NCBI GenBank assembly: GCA_021108295.1
Contig: JAIORF010000102.1
Span: forward strand, 391,041-455,040
Length of the DNA stretch: 64,000 nt
Direction: 5' to 3'
DNA from: a bacterium
GTDB lineage: Bacteria; Patescibacteriota; Dojkabacteria; SC72
Shown: positions 51,367-55,281 of the stretch, in pieces
Numbering within the stretch: the stretch's first letter is position 1
Layout of the letters: each line of letters starts with the position of its first letter
Position numbers and translations under genes: made by a program
The notes under the pieces: generated by a model
What the model saw: the letters and a program-made list of their open reading frames with translations, nothing else
Told to the model about the DNA's origin: nothing
Databases searched by the model: none

Positions 51367-52212
51367 GTGGAGAGAGATGTAATTGACAAAAAAGAAGATT
51401 CTACTGCTCTACATATATTCACACTTTTTGTTGTTGTGTTAATTGTCGGCTTACCTATTTACGGGTATTTCAAACTTAAGCCAGATACTGTTGTTAATCA
51501 AGAAGAAAGAATTGAAGAAGAAAAGAGTATAGATGGGGAGGTTTTAGATGAGGAGAGCACTCCTCTTGTCGGGAAGGGATACATAGAAGAGATAGTTGAG
51601 ATAGAGGGGCAGTGGGCATATATTGTTGTTCCTGCATATATTGATATTGAGAACTTACCTACACTTGTGATTTACAATCATGGTTCTCTTACCTTTGTAG
51701 AGGAGGAGATGGATGAGGAGTTTAAGTGTAAGCTTTTGGAGTATGGGGAGGCTTTCACTGTACATAATTATACATTTGCTGTTTCTAATGCTCATGGTGT
51801 TAATTGGGGAAGCCTAGATTCGATTAATGATAATTATAGTATGTATGAATATATCAAGGAGAAGTATGGGATACAGGAGGGGATATATGAGATAGGGTTT
51901 AGTATGGGGGGACTACCTGCTATGAATTTTGCTACTACCTATCCTGAATTAGTCGATAAAATTGTACTACTAGCTCCTACTACAAGAACTGGAGAGTGGG
52001 ACAAAGATAGGGTTGAGAAGATAGAGGGTATAGATATTAAGATATGGCATGGGGATAGTGATATTAATGTTGGTTTAGTATATACACAGAATTGGGTAAA
52101 TAAAATAGAAAGTTTTGGAAAGGATATAGACTTAGTCATTCTTGAGGGTCAAACTCATTGGGATATAGATACAGAGTATATTGATGAAATACTAGAGTTT
52201 TTCTCTGATTAG
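51367..52212 (+). CDS. Alpha/beta-hydrolase-fold esterase/lipase-like protein
   Basis: 281 aa. N-terminal TM. Nucleophile elbow GFSMGG (G-x-S-x-G). Confidence 0.55.
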   Translation: MERDVIDKKEDSTALHIFTLFVVVLIVGLPIYGYFKLKPDTVVNQEERIEEEKSIDGEVLDEESTPLVGKGYIEEIVEIEGQWAYIVVPAYIDIENLPTLVIYNHGSLTFVEEEMDEEFKCKLLEYGEAFTVHNYTFAVSNAHGVNWGSLDSINDNYSMYEYIKEKYGIQEGIYEIGFSMGGLPAMNFATTYPELVDKIVLLAPTTRTGEWDKDRVEKIEGIDIKIWHGDSDINVGLVYTQNWVNKIESFGKDIDLVILEGQTHWDIDTEYIDEILEFFSD

Positions 52213-52626
52213 TTTTGCAATATTTGACAAACACAGATCTTCTTTCCTATTCCTGACTTCCTCATCTGATAGTATAGGTCCATTCCCCAGACAGAGTTTA
52301 AATTCATCGTATCTTGGAATAATATGAATATGGTAGTGAAAAACACTCTGTCCAGCTTTAGTTCCATTGTTTTGTAAGATATTGAAGTCTTCCACTTTGA
52401 ATGTTTTAGATATAGTTTTCGTAATCTTTTGAGCAACACCATACATATCTTTTATTAAGTCTTCAGGAACATCAAAGATATTCTCGTAATGTTCTTTAGG
52501 TATTACTAGGATATGACCTTTTTCAATTGGAAAATTATCTAGAAATGCGAAAATATCCTCATCTTCATATATCTTATGAGAGGGTACTTCCCCATTAGCC
52601 ATTTTACAAAAGATACAGTCTTCCAT
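52192..52626 (-). CDS. HIT-family nucleotide hydrolase/transferase
   Basis: 144 aa. Histidine triad HYHIHIIPR and N-terminal CIFCKM. Confidence 0.8.
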   Translation of the reverse strand: MEDCIFCKMANGEVPSHKIYEDEDIFAFLDNFPIEKGHILVIPKEHYENIFDVPEDLIKDMYGVAQKITKTISKTFKVEDFNILQNNGTKAGQSVFHYHIHIIPRYDEFKLCLGNGPILSDEEVRNRKEDLCLSNIAKLIREKL

Positions 52627-52627
52627 A

Positions 52628-52831
52628 TTACTCCTCTATGACAATTGCACTTACAGGGCATATACTTTGTGATTCTTTTACCTTACTTTCTAATTCCTTA
52701 GGAATATCCTTACCTTTTAATTCTTCTTTTACATCTACACTACCATTTGCCTTCATCTCAAATACTTCTGGACATACTGCTACACAGGATGCACATACTA
52801 CACATTTTGCTTGGTCTATTGAAACTTTCAT
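52628..52831 (-). CDS. Small single-cluster [4Fe-4S]/[3Fe-4S] ferredoxin
   Basis: 67 aa. CVVCASCVAVCP ... CP motif, as in Pyrococcus/Desulfovibrio-type monocluster ferredoxins. Confidence 0.7.
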   Translation of the reverse strand: MKVSIDQAKCVVCASCVAVCPEVFEMKANGSVDVKEELKGKDIPKELESKVKESQSICPVSAIVIEE

Positions 52832-52887
52832 CCTTCATGAGTTAAAAATTATCTATATATTCTTACAAATATTTGCAAACTTATCAA

Positions 52888-53400
52888 TTACCACACCTCC
52901 CTATGAATCTTTTCCTCTTGATATGCTTTCTCACTATGTGGAATTACTTCATTCTTAGGATAACCAATTGCCATAATACAAAGAACTCTGTAATCCTCTG
53001 GAATATTTAAAATCTTTTTTACAGACTTCTCCTTCCTACCTTCCTTAGAATCTTTACCTTTTACATTCCCCCAACAACAACCTAAACCTTGATTAGTAGA
53101 CTCTAAATAGATATGACCTGCAGCTAAACTACAATCCTGTACCCACATATCACTATCTGATGGCTTAGCAGTGATCACAATAGAGATAGAAGATGTTGAG
53201 ACAAACCTAGTCCACATTCCAACCTTACTCAACTTCTTCAAAACTTCTTTATCTTTCACAACCACAAATTCCCAAGGACATTTATGATTACCACTAGGAG
53301 CTACCATTGCAGCATTGAGTATTTCCTTAATCTGTTGATCTGAGACCTCTTGCTCTGTAAATTTTCTTACACTTCTTCGTTTTTTGAAAAGTTCATTCAT
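52888..53400 (-). CDS. Nitroreductase-family flavoprotein
   Basis: 170 aa. N-terminal KRRSVRKF...APSGNHKCPWEFVVV, typical of the nitroreductase fold. Confidence 0.7.
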   Translation of the reverse strand: MNELFKKRRSVRKFTEQEVSDQQIKEILNAAMVAPSGNHKCPWEFVVVKDKEVLKKLSKVGMWTRFVSTSSISIVITAKPSDSDMWVQDCSLAAGHIYLESTNQGLGCCWGNVKGKDSKEGRKEKSVKKILNIPEDYRVLCIMAIGYPKNEVIPHSEKAYQEEKIHREVW

Positions 53401-53444
53401 ACCTATATCTTTACAAATATGTATATAAATTGCAATTACTCTTT

Positions 53445-53717
53445 CTAGTTAGGTATACGTATTGCATCACCATTGATTATTGCATTTGTAATCTTTCGTA
53501 GAGTACTAACCAAATCTCTTTGATATTGACTCTGTGAAAGACCCATTCTTTTTGCAGCATTAGTCTGAGAAAGGTTCTCTACATATCTAAGCCTCATGGT
53601 TTCCAACTCTTCAGTAGTGACAACTACCTCATTTAACTTCCTAAGTGGAACACCATGAGGTTTATAGTATATATTGTTATAACCAAATTTTACTCTTCTT
53701 CTATGTCTTTTTCTCAT
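53445..53717 (-). CDS. DUF134 (UPF0251) family predicted DNA-binding protein
   Basis: 90 aa. MRKRHRRRVKFGYNNIYYKPHGVPLRKLNEVVVTTEELETMRLRYVENLSQ...GDAIRI follows the family pattern of a basic N-terminus, a GxPLREL-like segment, an HTH and a C-terminal GxAIRI. Confidence 0.7.
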   Translation of the reverse strand: MRKRHRRRVKFGYNNIYYKPHGVPLRKLNEVVVTTEELETMRLRYVENLSQTNAAKRMGLSQSQYQRDLVSTLRKITNAIINGDAIRIPN

Positions 53718-53723
53718 AATTGA

Positions 53724-53933
53724 TTATAAACAAAGTTTACCTTTCATTGTCATACCACACTTAGGGCATTTCTTTTCTGTACAAGGAATTCCTCTCTCGG
53801 AATTTTCTGTGTGTCCACATTCTGGACATGTACAAACTTTGAGGGTATTTCCTTTTCCTCTTGCTCTTCCTCTGCCTCTGCCTCTACCACAACCTCTTCC
53901 AAAGAATCCTTTTCTTAAAAATCTTCTTCTCAT
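53724..53933 (-). CDS. Small Arg/Gly-rich zinc-ribbon protein (resembles DUF5320-type proteins that accompany DUF134 genes)
   Basis: I trimmed the track ORF (53724..54008) to start at MRRRFLRKGFFGRGCGRGRGRGRARGKGN. The trimmed-off 5' part is a palindrome-rich intergenic region. C-terminal CTCPECG...CPKCG four-Cys zinc ribbon. Confidence 0.45.
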   Translation of the reverse strand: MRRRFLRKGFFGRGCGRGRGRGRARGKGNTLKVCTCPECGHTENSERGIPCTEKKCPKCGMTMKGKLCL

Positions 53934-53952
53934 ATTTTTATATATTAATTTA

Positions 53953-54012
53953 ATTGGGTATTTACCCAATACAATATACCACGCCACCCCATATGGGTCA
54001 ATACCCATATGG
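53953..54012. promoter_or_regulatory. Divergent promoter/operator region with inverted repeat ATTGGGTA-TT-TACCCAAT and two copies of the palindrome CCCATATGG(G) spaced 16 nt centre-to-centre
   Basis: Read directly from the sequence: 53953..53970 is an 8+8 inverted repeat. 53988..53997 (CCCATATGGG) and 54004..54012 (CCCATATGG) are self-complementary. They lie between the divergently transcribed Zn-ribbon/DUF134 operon and the CsoR-like/thioredoxin operon. Confidence 0.4.
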
Positions 54013-54055
54013 CATATTTGACAAACTCACCATATATGCTATACTCCAGTACAGT

Positions 54056-54292
54056 ATGAGTAAAAATGAAGAACTACAAAATCGAATATCAAAGATTGAA
54101 GGACAAATAAAAGGAATCCAGAAGATGATCGATAGAGGTAGAAATTCTTTGGATATCGTACAACAGATAGTGGCTGTCAACTCTGCTCTTAAAAAGGTCG
54201 GTATTGAAATACTTAAAGAGGAAACAGCTACTTGTGTCAATGACAAGAAGAAGTTTGAAACATTACTTGAGTCATTATTTAGGTTAAAATAG
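54056..54292 (+). CDS. CsoR/RcnR/FrmR-family (DUF156) small helical transcriptional repressor, atypical (lacks first-position Cys)
   Basis: I trimmed the track ORF (53954..) to MSKNEELQNRISKIEGQIKGIQKMIDRGRNSLDIVQQIVAVNSALKKVGIEILKEETATCV. This matches the R-x-x-RIEGQ-x-x-G...D-x-Q-x-A-x-ALD-KV signature of the family. Confidence 0.55.
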   Translation: MSKNEELQNRISKIEGQIKGIQKMIDRGRNSLDIVQQIVAVNSALKKVGIEILKEETATCVNDKKKFETLLESLFRLK

Positions 54293-54325
54293 TTAATAAT
54301 ATATTTTATTTTTTATTCAATAAAC

Positions 54326-54634
54326 ATGGAAACAATATTAACAGACTCAAATTTTAAAGAAGAAATATCTTCTGGATTAGTATTAGTAGACTTCTGGGCA
54401 CCTTGGTGCGGACCTTGTAGAATGCTTACTCCTATTATCAAGGAAGTAGCAAAAGAGGTTGAGGGTGTAAAGGTTGGTAAGCTTAATGTAGATGAGAACC
54501 CACAGACTGCACAAGAGTTTCAGATTATGAGTATACCTGCTGTTATGCTTTTTAAGGACGGAAAGGTTGTAGAAACCCTAATTGGTTTGAGACCTAAAGA
54601 GGCATACCTAGAGGCTATAGAGAGTCATAAGTAG
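54326..54634 (+). CDS. trxA: Thioredoxin
   Basis: 102 aa. WCGPC active site. Thioredoxin-typical length and FKDGKVV motif. Confidence 0.85.
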   Translation: METILTDSNFKEEISSGLVLVDFWAPWCGPCRMLTPIIKEVAKEVEGVKVGKLNVDENPQTAQEFQIMSIPAVMLFKDGKVVETLIGLRPKEAYLEAIESHK

Positions 54635-54639
54635 ACTAC

Positions 54640-55281
54640 TTACCTCCAAATTGTAATATTTTGCATAAAAAATGGGAAGACATTCTCTATCTCATACTTC
54701 CTTACACCTATTGTATCTAGCATTTCTCTAATCTCCCTTGGTCTATACGCAGCCCTTATAGATTTAAAAAGACCATTTTGTACGGGTACCCAATGCAACC
54801 ACCATACTCTTTTAAGGTCAGATATAAGTAATACCCCATCATCATTCAAATATTGCATTAGGTTCTCAATCATCTCTTTTGAATCTTCCCAATGGTGTAG
54901 CGAGAATGTTGAGTAGATTAAATCAAATTTACCCAGACTTTTTAACAACCCCTCACTTCCAATATCACCCTTAACAAAACGTACCTGAGATTCTACCCCA
55001 TTCTCTTTTATATATTCCTCTCCCACTATAATCATATCGGTAGACACCTCTATTGCTGTGATATCTATATTTGCATTCTGTTTCGCGATTATAGTAGCTA
55101 AGGTTCCGGTACCAGCCCCTATCTCTAAATATCTTCCTTCTACATCAAGAGTAGTTAGCTTATTCATAAATCCACGGAATCTCATCTTTGCAGAGTTCTC
55201 TGCTTCTTTTGCATATTTTCTTGCACCTTCAATATTGAAGAAAGTTTCATTTTGGTCCTTTTCTACTATTCTTTTAAACAT
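54640..55281 (-). CDS. Class I SAM-dependent methyltransferase (Methyltransf_11/25-like, small-molecule or RNA MTase)
   Basis: 213 aa. Motif I LEIGAGTGTLA. Acidic residue after beta2. No DNA-MTase DPPY/FxGxG motifs. Confidence 0.7.
   Translation of the reverse strand: MFKRIVEKDQNETFFNIEGARKYAKEAENSAKMRFRGFMNKLTTLDVEGRYLEIGAGTGTLATIIAKQNANIDITAIEVSTDMIIVGEEYIKENGVESQVRFVKGDIGSEGLLKSLGKFDLIYSTFSLHHWEDSKEMIENLMQYLNDDGVLLISDLKRVWWLHWVPVQNGLFKSIRAAYRPREIREMLDTIGVRKYEIENVFPFFMQNITIWR

What the first reader, a model, noticed from the sequence alone, without database searches (positions are those of the whole stretch)
52192..54634. Compact redox/regulatory island: [RG-rich Zn-ribbon / DUF134 / nitroreductase / ferredoxin / HIT] divergent from [CsoR-like repressor / thioredoxin], with palindromic operator-like sites in between
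One minus-strand operon encodes, in order, an Arg/Gly-rich zinc-ribbon protein, a DUF134 DNA-binding protein, a nitroreductase-family flavoprotein, a monocluster ferredoxin and a HIT hydrolase. It is transcribed divergently from a CsoR/FrmR-family repressor and a thioredoxin. The 122-nt intergenic region (53934..54055) contains a perfect 8-bp inverted repeat (ATTGGGTA-TT-TACCCAAT) and two copies of the self-complementary CCCATATGG(G) spaced 16 nt centre-to-centre. These are plausible binding sites for the DUF134 protein and/or the CsoR-like repressor. DUF134 has no established function, so a small defined regulon (Fd + nitroreductase + Trx) with clear operators is a tractable place to study it. 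The CsoR-like protein has N-S-L-D where canonical metal sensors have the x-C-H-C ligands, which suggests a non-metal signal (FrmR/CstR-like persulfide or aldehyde sensing).
Basis: partly seen in the sequence, partly recalled or inferred. Interest (0 to 1): 0.6.

Follow-up and report, generated by a model that had tools for sequence, protein, structure and literature searches.

The report
Two back-to-back self-regulated redox gene switches
In an uncultured candidate-phylum (Dojkabacteria-like) bacterium, two small regulator modules sit back to back, each with its own conserved DNA site: an uncharacterised DUF134 protein with a cysteine-rich partner, and a one-cysteine CsoR-type repressor with thioredoxin; this gives the unstudied DUF134 family a concrete, testable DNA target.

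Summary
Comparison with about 20 related loci changes how the intergenic region should be read.

- **Conserved unit.** Only four genes are conserved: [Cys-rich small protein + DUF134] divergent from [CsoR-family protein + thioredoxin]. Nitroreductase, ferredoxin and HIT are lineage-specific additions.
- **CCCATATGG copies.** They are not conserved, even in a relative whose CsoR-like protein is 94% identical. They are the outer arms of one dyad whose conserved core is TGGGT-CAAT-ACCCA (O2).
- **O1 and O2.** O2 carries the -35 (TTGACC) of the DUF134-operon promoter.
- **Which gene the dyads follow.** O1 and O2 go with DUF134. They are present in three loci that have no adjacent CsoR-like gene and absent from a CsoR/Trx-only locus.
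TGCTATACTCCAGTACAGTA (54037-54056) overlaps the csoR -10 and start codon. It matches 11 of 12 specified positions of the experimentally defined TTHA1953 (CsoR-family) site and goes with the CsoR-like gene.
- **CsoR-like residues.** The protein has Ser31/Glu56/Cys60. It is therefore not a CsoR, RcnR, FrmR or dithiol CstR by ligand residues.

Most likely these are two autoregulated thiol/redox modules. The operator-protein assignments are inferred from co-occurrence, and the signals are unknown.

The parts
53724..53933 (-). Small Cys-rich protein (69 aa). It has an Arg/Gly-rich N-terminus and two rubredoxin/Zn-ribbon CPxCG knuckles, with six family-invariant Cys (CxCPxC...PC...CPxC). It is the first gene of the DUF134 unit. 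The real start is ATG 53933, not 54008.
   Evidence: - No significant Pfam hit for the window protein.
- In 30 aligned homologues C34, C36, C39, C51, C56 and C59 are invariant.
- Several homologues hit PF17253 (DUF5320).
- All relatives start with MR(R/K/N)F(L/F)R.
- AF2 confidence is low (pLDDT 61.7), and the fold search gave only non-significant zinc-ribbon/rubredoxin-type matches.
53445..53717 (-). DUF134 (UPF0251) protein, 90 aa. It is a sigma-70 region-4-like helix-turn-helix with a basic N-terminal arm. It starts 6 nt after the small-protein gene ends.
   Evidence: - PF02001, 50.4 bits against a cut-off of 27.
- AF2 pLDDT 87.4. Helices 35-82 superpose on sigma region 4 at 0.7-0.8 A over about 48 residues.
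- The recognition-helix segment SQSQYQRDL is invariant in 33 homologues.
- No solved structure matched the DUF134 profile beyond weak sigma region-4 hits.
53994..54007 (.). O2: dyad TGGGT-CAAT-ACCCA. On the minus strand its spacer and arm carry the -35 hexamer TTGACC (54001-53996) of the DUF134-operon promoter.
   Evidence: - Position and sequence.
- The core is conserved in 11 of 13 clade loci and in the CsoR-less loci L021, L029 and L030.
- The outer arms are not conserved.
53955..53968 (.). It starts 4 nt downstream of the -10 of the DUF134-operon promoter and so covers the predicted transcription start.
   Evidence: - Position.
- GGGT and ACCC are kept while the 4-nt spacer varies in 15 of 16 loci; L022 has one mismatch.
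- The O2-to-O1 start-to-start distance is 39 bp in most loci, with a range of 34-40.
53973..54001 (-). P(-): sigma-70-type promoter of the small-protein/DUF134 unit, TTGACC-17 nt-TATATT with TGn before the -10.
   Evidence: - Promoter scan: 10 of 12 positions plus TG.
- The same TTGACC-17-TAnnnT geometry is present in 13 of 14 loci examined; L008 lacks the TTGAC.
54018..54045 (+). P(+): sigma-70-type promoter of the CsoR-like/thioredoxin unit, TTGACA-16 nt-TATACT with TG. The -10 ends 10 nt before the ATG, so the leader is very short or absent.
   Evidence: - Best promoter-like match in the scanned region, 11 of 12.
- TTGACA and TATACT are invariant in 13 of 13 loci.
54037..54056 (.). Predicted operator of the CsoR-like repressor: TGC-TA-TAC-TCCA-GTA-CA-GTA. 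It spans the extended -10, the start region and the first base of the start codon.
   Evidence: - 11 of 12 match to the REPSA-defined TTHA1953 site TACNNTACNNNNGTANNGTA (PMC10318464).
- It is the only hit in 64 kb at up to 1 mismatch, against 0.14 expected.
- It is present at up to 1 mismatch in 12 of 13 clade loci, including the DUF134-less L012. The match is perfect in L011, L014, L017 and in the distant homologue L018.
- It is absent from the DUF134-only loci.
- Variable columns: 2 of 12 specified positions against 4 of 8 N positions.
54056..54292 (+). CsoR/RcnR-family (PF02583) protein, 78 aa, with W-X-Y-Z = N-S-E-C (Ser31, Glu56, Cys60).
   Evidence: -.
- Cys60 is invariant in 19 aligned clade members. 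Position 31 is Ser in 16, Thr in one and Cys in two.
- The nearest representatives are mostly x-C-E/D-C or x-C-H-C.
54326..54634 (+). Thioredoxin (WCGPC motif), 33 nt downstream of the CsoR-like gene.
   Evidence: - Pfam E 1.3e-29; TIGR01068 123.8 bits against 96.8.
- It is paired with the CsoR-like gene in every locus where the downstream sequence is available.
52888..53400 (-). Nitroreductase-family flavoprotein (170 aa). It is lineage-specific cargo, 44 nt after DUF134, and is preceded by its own promoter-like element (53435-53407).
   Evidence: - Pfam.
- It follows DUF134 only in the window and L007.
- Upstream element TTGCAA-17-AAAGAT, sharing an ATATTTGTAA block with the Fd upstream region.
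52628..52831 (-). Single-cluster 4Fe-4S ferredoxin (67 aa), preceded by the promoter-like TTGATA-17-AAGAAT (52887-52859).
   Evidence: - Best Pfam matches Fer4_15 and Fer4_13.
- Promoter scan.
- The upstream element is conserved in L007.
52192..52626 (-). HIT-family hydrolase (144 aa), 1 nt after the ferredoxin gene. Its 3' end overlaps the convergent gene 51367-52212 by 21 nt.

Best explanation
The locus is two separable, self-regulated modules placed back to back. It is not one regulon with shared operators.

**Module A (minus strand)**
- The promoter is TTGACC-17-TATATT. It is bracketed by two copies of the dyad GGGT-N4-ACCC: O2 sits on the -35 and O1 on the transcription start.
- Most likely a dimer of the DUF134 protein binds both copies. 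DUF134 is a stand-alone sigma-region-4-like HTH.
- Binding at both sites would shut off its own operon.
- The co-encoded Cys6-7 rubredoxin/Zn-ribbon protein is DUF5320-related. It is proposed to be the sensing partner, responding to thiol oxidation or to metal/Fe-S status, by analogy with a zinc anti-sigma factor on sigma region 4.
- The downstream cargo is interchangeable. It is nitroreductase here, then ferredoxin-HIT, which probably have their own promoters.

**Module B (plus strand)**
- The promoter is TTGACA-16-TATACT. A TTHA1953-type 20-bp site, TGCTATACTCCAGTACAGTA, overlaps it.
- Most likely the CsoR-family tetramer binds this site and represses its own gene and trxA.
- The protein has lost the attacking Cys and the His, and keeps only Cys60.
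- I infer a one-cysteine thiol switch. Modification of Cys60 by an oxidant, an electrophile or a persulfide would release the DNA, and thioredoxin would reset it.

**Shown and inferred**
- Shown: gene families, promoter and dyad conservation, and which dyad accompanies which gene.
- Inferred: which protein binds which site, repression as the mode of action, and the signals.
For: **The four-gene core is conserved**
- It recurs where sequence on both sides is available, while the downstream genes vary.

**Double dissociation of the two sites**
- L012 has the CsoR-like/Trx pair behind an unrelated same-strand gene and no DUF134. GGGT-N4-ACCC is absent there, while the promoter and the 20-bp site are kept.
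- L021, L029 and L030 have small protein + DUF134 with no adjacent CsoR-like/Trx pair. O2(-35)-17-(-10)-O1 has the same geometry there, and the 20-bp site is absent.

**Site specificity**
- In the window and fetched loci, every exact GGGT-N4-ACCC listed lies at a DUF134-operon promoter.

**Substitution pattern and geometry**
- In O1, GGGT and ACCC are fixed while the spacer varies.
- The DUF134 recognition helix is invariant across the same loci.
- A 5-4-5 dyad puts the half-site centres about one helical turn apart, as expected for an HTH dimer.

**DUF134 fold**
- The model matches sigma region 4. Many of the best matches are sigma4:anti-sigma complexes.

**The CsoR-like site**
- 11 of 12 match to the experimentally defined TTHA1953 consensus (PMC10318464) and unique in 64 kb.
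- 12 of 13 loci match at up to 1 mismatch.
- Variation is concentrated in the consensus N positions.
- More distant CsoR-like homologues carry textbook family sites at the same place: TATACT-G7-AGTATA in L010 and one mismatch from it in L020. Site typing follows PMC3902906.

**Residue assignment**
-.
Against: - No binding or expression data exist. The assignments rest on co-occurrence.
- The CsoR-like protein could be encoded elsewhere in the L021, L029 and L030 genomes and still bind O1/O2.
- L023/L024 carry a DUF134 with the same recognition helix but no GGGT-N4-ACCC upstream.
- L008 lacks O2.
- O2 conservation is partly explained by its carrying the -35.
- The 20-bp site overlaps the -10, the extended -10 and the start codon, so part of its conservation is promoter or leader constraint.
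- The small protein's metal, its interaction with DUF134 and any redox role are untested, and its model is poor.
- A single Cys per protomer has no characterised switching mechanism in this family.
Confidence: 0.55

Rival explanations
1. First reader's model. The two CCCATATGG(G) copies and the 8-bp inverted repeat are operators through which DUF134 and/or the CsoR-like repressor control one small regulon (ferredoxin + nitroreductase + thioredoxin). The CsoR-like protein would sense persulfide or aldehyde as CstR or FrmR do.
For: - Exact copies of both motifs occur only here in 64 kb.
- ACCC-CATATG-GGT has the C-tract-then-G-tract order of classical CsoR type 2 sites (PMC3902906).
Against: - The outer CCCATA/TATGG arms are not conserved even in L007 (94% identical CsoR-like protein) or in any other locus.
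- With one mismatch the motif is at the chance rate.
- Nitroreductase, Fd and HIT follow DUF134 in only one sub-lineage. In the window and L007 the nitroreductase and Fd genes have their own promoter-like elements.
- The X Cys needed for both the CstR and FrmR mechanisms is Ser, and there is no Pro2.
Confidence: 0.07
2. Cross-regulation. The CsoR-like repressor binds O1/O2 as well as, or instead of, the 20-bp site. It would thereby control the divergent DUF134 operon, and DUF134 would act elsewhere in the genome.
For: - The divergent arrangement with a shared 122-bp control region is conserved in about 12 loci.
- O1 contains a GTA/TAC inverted repeat next to G/C runs, elements used by CsoR-family sites (PMC3902906).
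- O2 abuts the csoR -35, with a spacer of 1-2 or 10-11 nt that keeps helical phase.
Against: - O1/O2 persist with identical geometry in three loci with no adjacent CsoR-like gene, and vanish from the CsoR/Trx-only locus.
- A better family-typical site exists over the csoR -10.
Confidence: 0.13
3. O1/O2 are bound by something other than DUF134: the Cys-rich small protein itself, a DUF134/small-protein heteromer only, or an unlinked factor. Alternatively DUF134 activates rather than represses.
For: - The small protein always accompanies DUF134 wherever O1/O2 are present.
- L023/L024 have DUF134 without the small protein and without the dyads.
- Zinc ribbons with basic tails can bind nucleic acids.
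Against: - DUF134 has the only recognisable DNA-binding fold.
- Its recognition helix is invariant across the loci that share the dyad.
- Sites on the -35 and on the transcription start are typical of repression, not activation.
Confidence: 0.2
4. The palindromes are not protein sites. O1 is an RNA hairpin in the 5' leader, O2 is simply the -35 context, and the 20-bp element is only promoter and leader sequence.
For: - O1 lies between the -10 and the ATG.
- O2 contains the -35.
- The 20-bp element contains the -10 and the start codon.
Against: - O1 starts 4 nt after the -10, so a normal start site falls inside its left arm and the RNA would lack a full stem (inference).
- O1 and O2 share the same GGGT-N4-ACCC dyad although O2 is upstream of the start.
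- The GGGT/ACCC arms are not needed for a -35.
- The GTA-NN-GTA half downstream of the -10 is conserved and matches an experimentally defined protein site (PMC10318464).
- No Rfam family matches the region.
Confidence: 0.05

Closest known systems
TTHA1953 of Thermus thermophilus HB8 (CsoR-family, CstR-like repressor of the sox genes; PMC10318464)
   Same: - PF02583 family.
- The predicted operator matches its REPSA consensus TACNNTACNNNNGTANNGTA at 11 of 12 positions here, and perfectly in three relatives and in L018.
- The site has no long G-tract.
- Its most strongly regulated gene is a thioredoxin (SoxW).
- Its two Cys are spaced 29 residues apart (C39/C68), the same spacing as positions 31 and 60 here.
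   Different: - The window protein has Ser at the first Cys position, so the disulfide-linked form that lowers TTHA1953 DNA binding cannot form in the same way.
- The target is adjacent (autoregulated csoR-trxA), not remote.
- There are no sox genes nearby.
CstR (persulfide-sensing CsoR-family repressors; PMC8643695)
   Same: - Non-metal, thiol-based branch of the family.
- The nearest representative homologues are x-C-E/D-C.
- E. faecalis-type CstR structures are among the best PDB sequence matches.
   Different: - CstR needs the N-terminal attacking Cys plus the resolving Cys. Here the attacking Cys is Ser in 16 of 19 aligned clade members.
- There are no sulfurtransferase, SQR or TauE genes nearby.
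CsoR / RcnR / InrS / FrmR
   Same: The four-helix-bundle family profile. The repressor gene lies next to its target, with a dyad operator over the promoter.
   Different: Cu ligands C-H-C, Ni/Co ligands H-C-H-H or H-C-H-C, and the FrmR Pro2 + Cys are all missing. The operator has no G/C tract.
DUF134 (PF02001, UPF0251, COG1342) with DUF5320 partners, as in orp-type metallocluster gene clusters (Desulfovibrio ORP complex; PMC6345978)
   Same: - DUF134 profile match.
- In relatives L021 and L030 the upstream small protein hits DUF5320.
- Distant homologues of the small protein sit with Nitro_FeMo-Co, ParA/Mrp-Fer4 and ferredoxin genes.
   Different: - The small protein here has lost the MPxxDGTGP start and does not reach the DUF5320 profile.
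- Its C-terminal half is a Cys6 double knuckle. From my own recollection of the Pfam entry (not checked here), typical DUF5320 has a coiled coil there instead.
- There are no Nitro_FeMo-Co or Mrp genes here.
- I found no paper describing a DNA target or function for DUF134.
Zinc-associated anti-sigma factor / ECF sigma pairs such as RsrA-SigR, which control thioredoxin genes
   Same: - Working analogy only.
- A sigma-region-4-like HTH is co-encoded with a small Cys-rich metal-binding protein, next to a thioredoxin gene.
- The best structural matches of DUF134 include sigma4:anti-sigma complexes.
   Different: - DUF134 has no sigma region 2, so it cannot be a sigma factor.
- The partner lacks the HxxxCxxC motif.
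- The DNA sites are dyads at repressor positions.

Membership tests
CsoR/RcnR family (PF02583, DUF156) | Profile match above the curated threshold | tested here: met
   76.8 bits against a cut-off of 22.8. PDB sequence matches to CsoR, CstR and InrS down to E 3.4e-11.
Cu(I)-sensing CsoR | x-C-H-C ligand set (Cys36, His61, Cys65 in M. tuberculosis numbering) | tested here: not met
   Aligned residues are Ser31, Glu56 and Cys60.
CstR (persulfide sensor) | x-C-x-C dithiol pair, with the N-terminal Cys as attacking nucleophile (PMC8643695) | tested here: not met
   Position 31 is Ser in the window protein and in 16 of 19 aligned clade members (Thr in one); only P0006 and L016 have Cys. Cys60 is invariant in the alignment.
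FrmR (formaldehyde sensor) | Pro2 N-terminal amine plus the X-position Cys, which form the methylene bridge | tested here: not met
   The N-terminus is MSKNEE and X is Ser31. The NCBIfam FrmR model scores 23.9 bits against a cut-off of 133.
RcnR / InrS (Ni/Co sensors) | H-C-H-H or H-C-H-C ligand set | tested here: not met
   The fingerprint is N-S-E-C. The RcnR model scores 35.2 bits against 138.
TTHA1953-type CsoR-family repressors | Operator TACNNTAC-N4-GTANNGTA at the regulated promoter | tested here: met
   54037-54056 matches 11 of 12 and is the only hit in 64 kb. 12 of 13 clade loci match at up to 1 mismatch.
TTHA1953-type CsoR-family repressors | Redox control through two Cys (C39/C68) | tested here: not met
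   Only the second Cys is present.
CsoR/RcnR family (PF02583, DUF156) | Binds the operator as a tetramer and represses; an inducer releases it | not testable with these tools
   Needs EMSA, footprinting or reporter assays.
DUF134 (PF02001 / UPF0251) | Profile match above the curated threshold | tested here: met
   50.4 bits against 27. The NCBIfam equivalog PRK04217 scores 42.2 bits against 115, which is not met.
DUF134 (PF02001 / UPF0251) | Sigma-70 region-4-like helix-turn-helix fold | tested here: met
   AF2 pLDDT 87.4. The model superposes on sigma region 4 at 0.7-0.8 A over about 48 residues. Foldseek probability is 1.0, but E is only about 0.015.
DUF5320 (PF17253) | Profile match | tested here: not met
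   The window protein has no DUF5320 hit even at E 10. Homologues P0103, P0105, P0107, P0109, P0113 and P0120 do hit it. I therefore treat it as a related, N-terminally reduced variant.
Zinc-ribbon / rubredoxin-type metal site | Two CPxCG knuckles positioned to bind one metal | tested here: inconclusive
   The motifs are present and invariant. The model is low-confidence and the fold matches are not significant. The metal identity is untestable here.
ZAS anti-sigma factor | HxxxCxxC zinc motif and binding to a cognate sigma factor | tested here: not met
   No such motif in the sequence. This is an analogy only.
Thioredoxin | Equivalog-level profile match and the WCGPC active site | tested here: met
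   TIGR01068 123.8 bits against 96.8. WCGPC is in the translation.

The most novel reading that the evidence does not exclude
DUF134 and its Cys6 DUF5320-related partner form a previously undescribed two-protein transcription switch. A stand-alone sigma-region-4-like repressor binds GGGT-N4-ACCC dyads placed on the -35 and on the start site of its own promoter. A small rubredoxin/Zn-ribbon protein that senses thiol-redox or Fe-S/metal status gates this repressor. The same logic would then apply to the DUF134/DUF5320 genes in other lineages. From my own recollection, not checked here, these are widespread in anaerobic bacteria and archaea next to orp/NifX-like/Mrp cluster genes.
Probability: 0.3. 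Interest if true: 0.7.

Novelty: new variant of a known kind. Interest (0 to 1): 0.5.

Why it matters
- DUF134 (UPF0251) has no paper on its function in the library I searched. From my own knowledge, not tested here, it is a widespread family.
- This locus supplies a specific 14-bp dyad, a promoter geometry and an obligate-looking partner protein. All three are supported by a natural double dissociation across genomes, so a few EMSA and reporter experiments could assign DUF134 a first function.
- The locus also shows a CsoR-family lineage that keeps only the resolving Cys. It appears to use the recently described G-tract-free TTHA1953-type operator to control thioredoxin.
- That extends the TTHA1953-type site class to candidate-phylum (Dojkabacteria-like) bacteria. 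It also raises the question of how a one-Cys member switches.

Tried and rejected
- **Inner palindrome ATACT-NN-AGTAT as the CsoR-like site.** It occurs at the chance rate in the window. I replaced it first with TATACT-N7-AGTATA and then with the experimentally grounded 20-bp TTHA1953 pattern.
- **Structure of the small protein.** Confidence is low (pLDDT 61.7), and the PDB fold search gave only non-significant zinc-ribbon/rubredoxin hits. No functional inference was drawn.
- **PDB sequence and profile searches for DUF134.** They returned only weak sigma region-4 matches and no solved family member.
- **Literature searches for DUF134, UPF0251, PF02001 and DUF5320.** Nothing on function.
- **Rfam over the whole window.** One tRNA only, and nothing in the intergenic region.
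- **Looking in the window for the cargo genes of relatives.** Neither the polysaccharide-deacetylase-like gene nor G6PD is present.
- **Regulon search for the two dyads in the window.** There are no further good sites, so within 64 kb both systems look purely autoregulatory.
- **Wider collection scans with the CsoR-like alignment.** They gave only 4 + 10 loci.

Full report
**1. What is in the sequence**

Pfam confirms the following:

| Gene | Coordinates (strand) | Evidence |
|---|---|---|
| HIT hydrolase | 52192-52626 (-) | Pfam E 3.5e-32 |
| Single-cluster 4Fe-4S ferredoxin | 52628-52831 (-) | Best Pfam hits Fer4_15 and Fer4_13 |
| Nitroreductase | 52888-53400 (-) | Pfam E 5.6e-25 |
| DUF134 | 53445-53717 (-) | 50.4 bits, cut-off 27 |
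| CsoR/RcnR-family protein | 54056-54292 (+) | PF02583, 76.8 bits, cut-off 22.8 |
| Thioredoxin | 54326-54634 (+) | Also TIGR01068, 123.8 bits against 96.8 |

The 69-aa Arg/Gly-rich, Cys-rich ORF (53724-53933, -) matches no family significantly.

- The perfect 8-bp inverted repeat is at 53953-53970.
- The two exact CCCATATGG copies are at 53988 and 54004.
- Homologues carry source names such as 'bacterium', 'candidate division WS6' and 'Candidatus Dojkabacteria'. The organism is therefore an uncultured Dojkabacteria-like member of the candidate phyla radiation.

**2. Only four genes are conserved**

Context look-ups, collection scans and ORF reading of the fetched loci give the same picture.
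- Every related locus with sequence on both sides has [small Cys-rich protein, then DUF134] divergent from [CsoR-like, then thioredoxin].
- The two units are about 120-135 bp apart.
- Downstream of DUF134, most relatives carry a 410-430-aa membrane-anchored polysaccharide-deacetylase-like protein, or first an ArsR-type gene.
- Downstream of thioredoxin, L001 and L004 carry glucose-6-phosphate dehydrogenase.
- Nitroreductase-ferredoxin-HIT follows DUF134 only in the window and in its closest relative L007.
- In both of those genomes the nitroreductase and ferredoxin genes are each preceded by a similar promoter-like element: TTGnnA, 17 nt, then A(A)AGAT or AAGAAT, with a shared ATATTTGTAA block.
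- The 'five-gene operon' and the 'Fd + nitroreductase + Trx regulon' are therefore not supported as a conserved unit.

**3. Re-reading the intergenic region**

I aligned 13 intergenic regions.

*Promoters*
- The plus-strand promoter TTGACA-16/18-TATACT is invariant.
- A minus-strand promoter TTGACC-17-TAnnnT, usually with an extended -10 TG, is present in 13 of 14 loci examined.
- These two are also the best sigma-70-type matches in the scanned region of the window.

*The CCCATATGG copies*
- They are not conserved, even in L007.
- What is conserved is the sequence between them, TGGGT-CAAT-ACCCA (O2, 53994-54007). On the minus strand it reads GGGTA[TTGACC]C, so it carries the -35 of P(-).
- In the window O2 happens to extend to a perfect 10-4-10 palindrome. 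That extension produces the two 'copies'.

*The 8-bp inverted repeat*
- Its core, TGGGT-ATTT-ACCCA (O1, 53955-53968), is the same dyad, GGGT-N4-ACCC.
- O1 begins 0-5 nt after the -10 of P(-), so it covers the predicted start site.
- In O1 the arms are fixed and the 4-nt spacer varies.
- O2 and O1 are 39 bp apart start to start in most loci.
- Exact GGGT-N4-ACCC occurs twice in the 64-kb window, both times here, against 0.31 expected.
- In the fetched loci every exact GGGT-N4-ACCC listed lies at a DUF134 promoter.

**4. Which dyad belongs to which gene**

| Locus type | Loci | GGGT-N4-ACCC (O1/O2) | 20-bp TTHA1953-type site |
|---|---|---|---|
| CsoR-like + Trx only, no DUF134 | L012 | Both absent | Kept, with the promoter |
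| Small protein + DUF134 only, no adjacent CsoR-like/Trx | L021, L029, L030 | Both present, same geometry | Absent |
| As above, degenerate | L022 | O1 with one mismatch, half of O2 | Absent |

- In L012 the pair sits behind an unrelated same-strand gene.
- In L021, L029 and L030 the neighbours differ: an ECF sigma factor, a glutaredoxin, and a tRNA with ArgRS. The O2(-35)-17-(-10)-O1 arrangement is nevertheless the same.
- O1/O2 therefore belong to the DUF134 unit and not to the CsoR-like gene.

*Why DUF134 is the likely binder*
- A 5-4-5 dyad fits a dimeric helix-turn-helix protein.
- DUF134 is the only such protein in the unit.
- Its AlphaFold model (pLDDT 87.4) superposes on sigma-70 region 4 at 0.7-0.8 A over about 48 residues.
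- Its recognition-helix segment SQSQYQRDL is invariant in 33 homologues.
- Sites on the -35 and on the start point indicate autorepression.

**5. The CsoR-like operator**

- Downstream of the -35 of P(+), about 25 nt are nearly invariant up to the ATG.
- The literature gave the key. TTHA1953, a CsoR-family repressor of T. thermophilus, has an experimentally selected and validated site, TACNNTACNNNNGTANNGTA. Unusually for the family it has no G-tract (PMC10318464).
- Window 54037-54056, TGC-TA-TAC-TCCA-GTA-CA-GTA, matches 11 of 12 specified positions.
- It is the only hit in 64 kb at up to one mismatch, against 0.14 expected.
- Matches at up to 1 mismatch occur in 12 of 13 clade loci, always just before the CsoR-like start.
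- L011, L014 and L017 match perfectly, and so does L018, a 47%-identical homologue.
- Across loci, 2 of the 12 specified columns vary, against 4 of the 8 N columns.
- The one deviating triplet (TGC for TAC) doubles as the extended -10 TG.
- Two more distant homologues carry TATACT-G7-AGTATA at the same place (L010 exact, L020 one mismatch). That is a classical type 1 RcnR-like site (PMC3902906), which shows that operators of this family sit there.
- The site is absent from the DUF134-only loci.

**6. The CsoR-like protein's sensing residues**

- Alignment to solved CsoR, CstR and InrS chains places Ser31 at the first Cys, Glu56 at the His and Cys60 at the last Cys.
- Cys60 is invariant in 19 aligned clade members. 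Position 31 is Ser in 16, Thr in one and Cys in two.
- Among the 150 nearest representatives from a full HMMER scan:
  - 64 are C-H-C;
  - 22 are C-E-C;
  - 11 are C-D-C;
  - about 20 lack the first Cys.
- The lineage therefore looks derived from dithiol (CstR/TTHA1953-like) ancestors. One-Cys variants recur in the family.
- The protein fails the residue tests for CsoR, RcnR/InrS, FrmR (no Pro2, no X Cys) and CstR, where the N-terminal Cys is the attacking residue (PMC8643695).
- A one-Cys thiol switch reset by the co-transcribed thioredoxin is my inference, not a shown fact.

**7. The small protein**

- Thirty homologues share six invariant Cys (CxCPxC...PC...CPxC), that is, two rubredoxin/zinc-ribbon CPxCG knuckles plus two extra Cys. 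They also share a Gly/Arg-rich N-terminus.
- Several homologues, including the L021 and L030 partners of DUF134, hit DUF5320.
- The window protein has lost the MPxxDGTGP start and does not reach the profile.
- More distant homologues lie in gene clusters with Nitro_FeMo-Co (NifX-like) proteins, ParA/Mrp-type ATPases with Fe-S domains, small ferredoxins, a sigma-54 activator or Fur.
- That content resembles the Desulfovibrio orp clusters (PMC6345978).
- I therefore propose a metal/Fe-S or thiol-redox sensing role as partner of DUF134. The analogy is a zinc anti-sigma factor acting on sigma region 4.
- This is inference. The structure model is poor and the fold search is uninformative.

**8. Model, rivals and verdict**

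- The best-supported reading is two separable autoregulated modules whose -35 elements lie 16 bp apart.
- The spacer between O2 and the csoR -35 is either 1-2 nt or 10-11 nt, through two independent insertions. Helical phase is kept, which hints at some coupling between the modules. With two events this is weak evidence.
- The rivals cannot be excluded without binding experiments:
  - the CsoR-like protein also binds O1/O2;
  - the small protein or another factor binds them;
  - the sites act at the RNA level or are only promoter sequence.
- The rivals fit the cross-genome pattern less well.
One operator was parsed in the wrong register, one was missed, the regulon is not conserved, and the ligand statement was imprecise.
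- The locus remains a good entry point for DUF134, now with a sharper hypothesis.

Noticed in passing
window 53407-53435 (-) and 52859-52887 (-): The nitroreductase and ferredoxin genes are each preceded by a similar promoter-like element (TTGCAA/TTGATA, 17 nt, AAAGAT/AAGAAT) with a shared ATATTTGTAA(G)A block. The element is conserved in L007. It may be a pair of internal promoters or a shared regulatory site.
   Followed up: partly
window 54008-54017; L011, L014 and L017 at the same place: The spacer between O2 and the -35 of the csoR promoter is 1-2 nt in six loci and 10-11 nt in two separate lineages. The insertions are about one helical turn long, which hints at face-of-helix coupling between the two promoters.
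   Followed up: partly
L025-L028, L031-L032: Distant homologues of the Cys-rich small protein lie in orp-like clusters, with Nitro_FeMo-Co (NifX-like) proteins, ParA/Mrp ATPases carrying Fe-S domains, small ferredoxins, a PAS/sigma-54 activator, Fur, and canonical DUF5320.
   Followed up: partly
L001, L004, L008, L009, L011, L013, L014, L017, L022, L029, L030: The usual gene after DUF134 is a 410-430-aa membrane-anchored protein with weak polysaccharide-deacetylase similarity. It is absent from the 64-kb window. Why a DUF134 unit would control it is unexplained.
   Followed up: no
L023 / L024: A DUF134 with the same SQSQYQRDL recognition helix stands alone, divergent from an XRE-type HTH gene. 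It has no small partner and no GGGT-N4-ACCC dyad upstream.
   Followed up: no
window 52192-52212: The 3' end of the HIT gene overlaps the convergent alpha/beta-hydrolase gene (51367-52212) by 21 nt. The thioredoxin gene ends 5 nt from a convergent SAM-methyltransferase gene (54640-55281). No terminator-like hairpins were found at these gene ends.
   Followed up: no
window 54040-54058: The csoR -10 ends only 10 nt before the ATG, and no Shine-Dalgarno-like sequence precedes the small-protein, csoR or trx start codons. The mRNAs may be leaderless or have very short leaders.
   Followed up: no
representatives P0146, P0151, P0152, P0156, P0185, P0247, P0276 and others: About 20 of the 150 nearest PF02583 cluster representatives lack the first (attacking) Cys but keep E/D and the last Cys (S/Y/P/V/A-E-C). 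One-Cys CsoR-family proteins therefore recur, and I know of no characterised member.
   Followed up: partly
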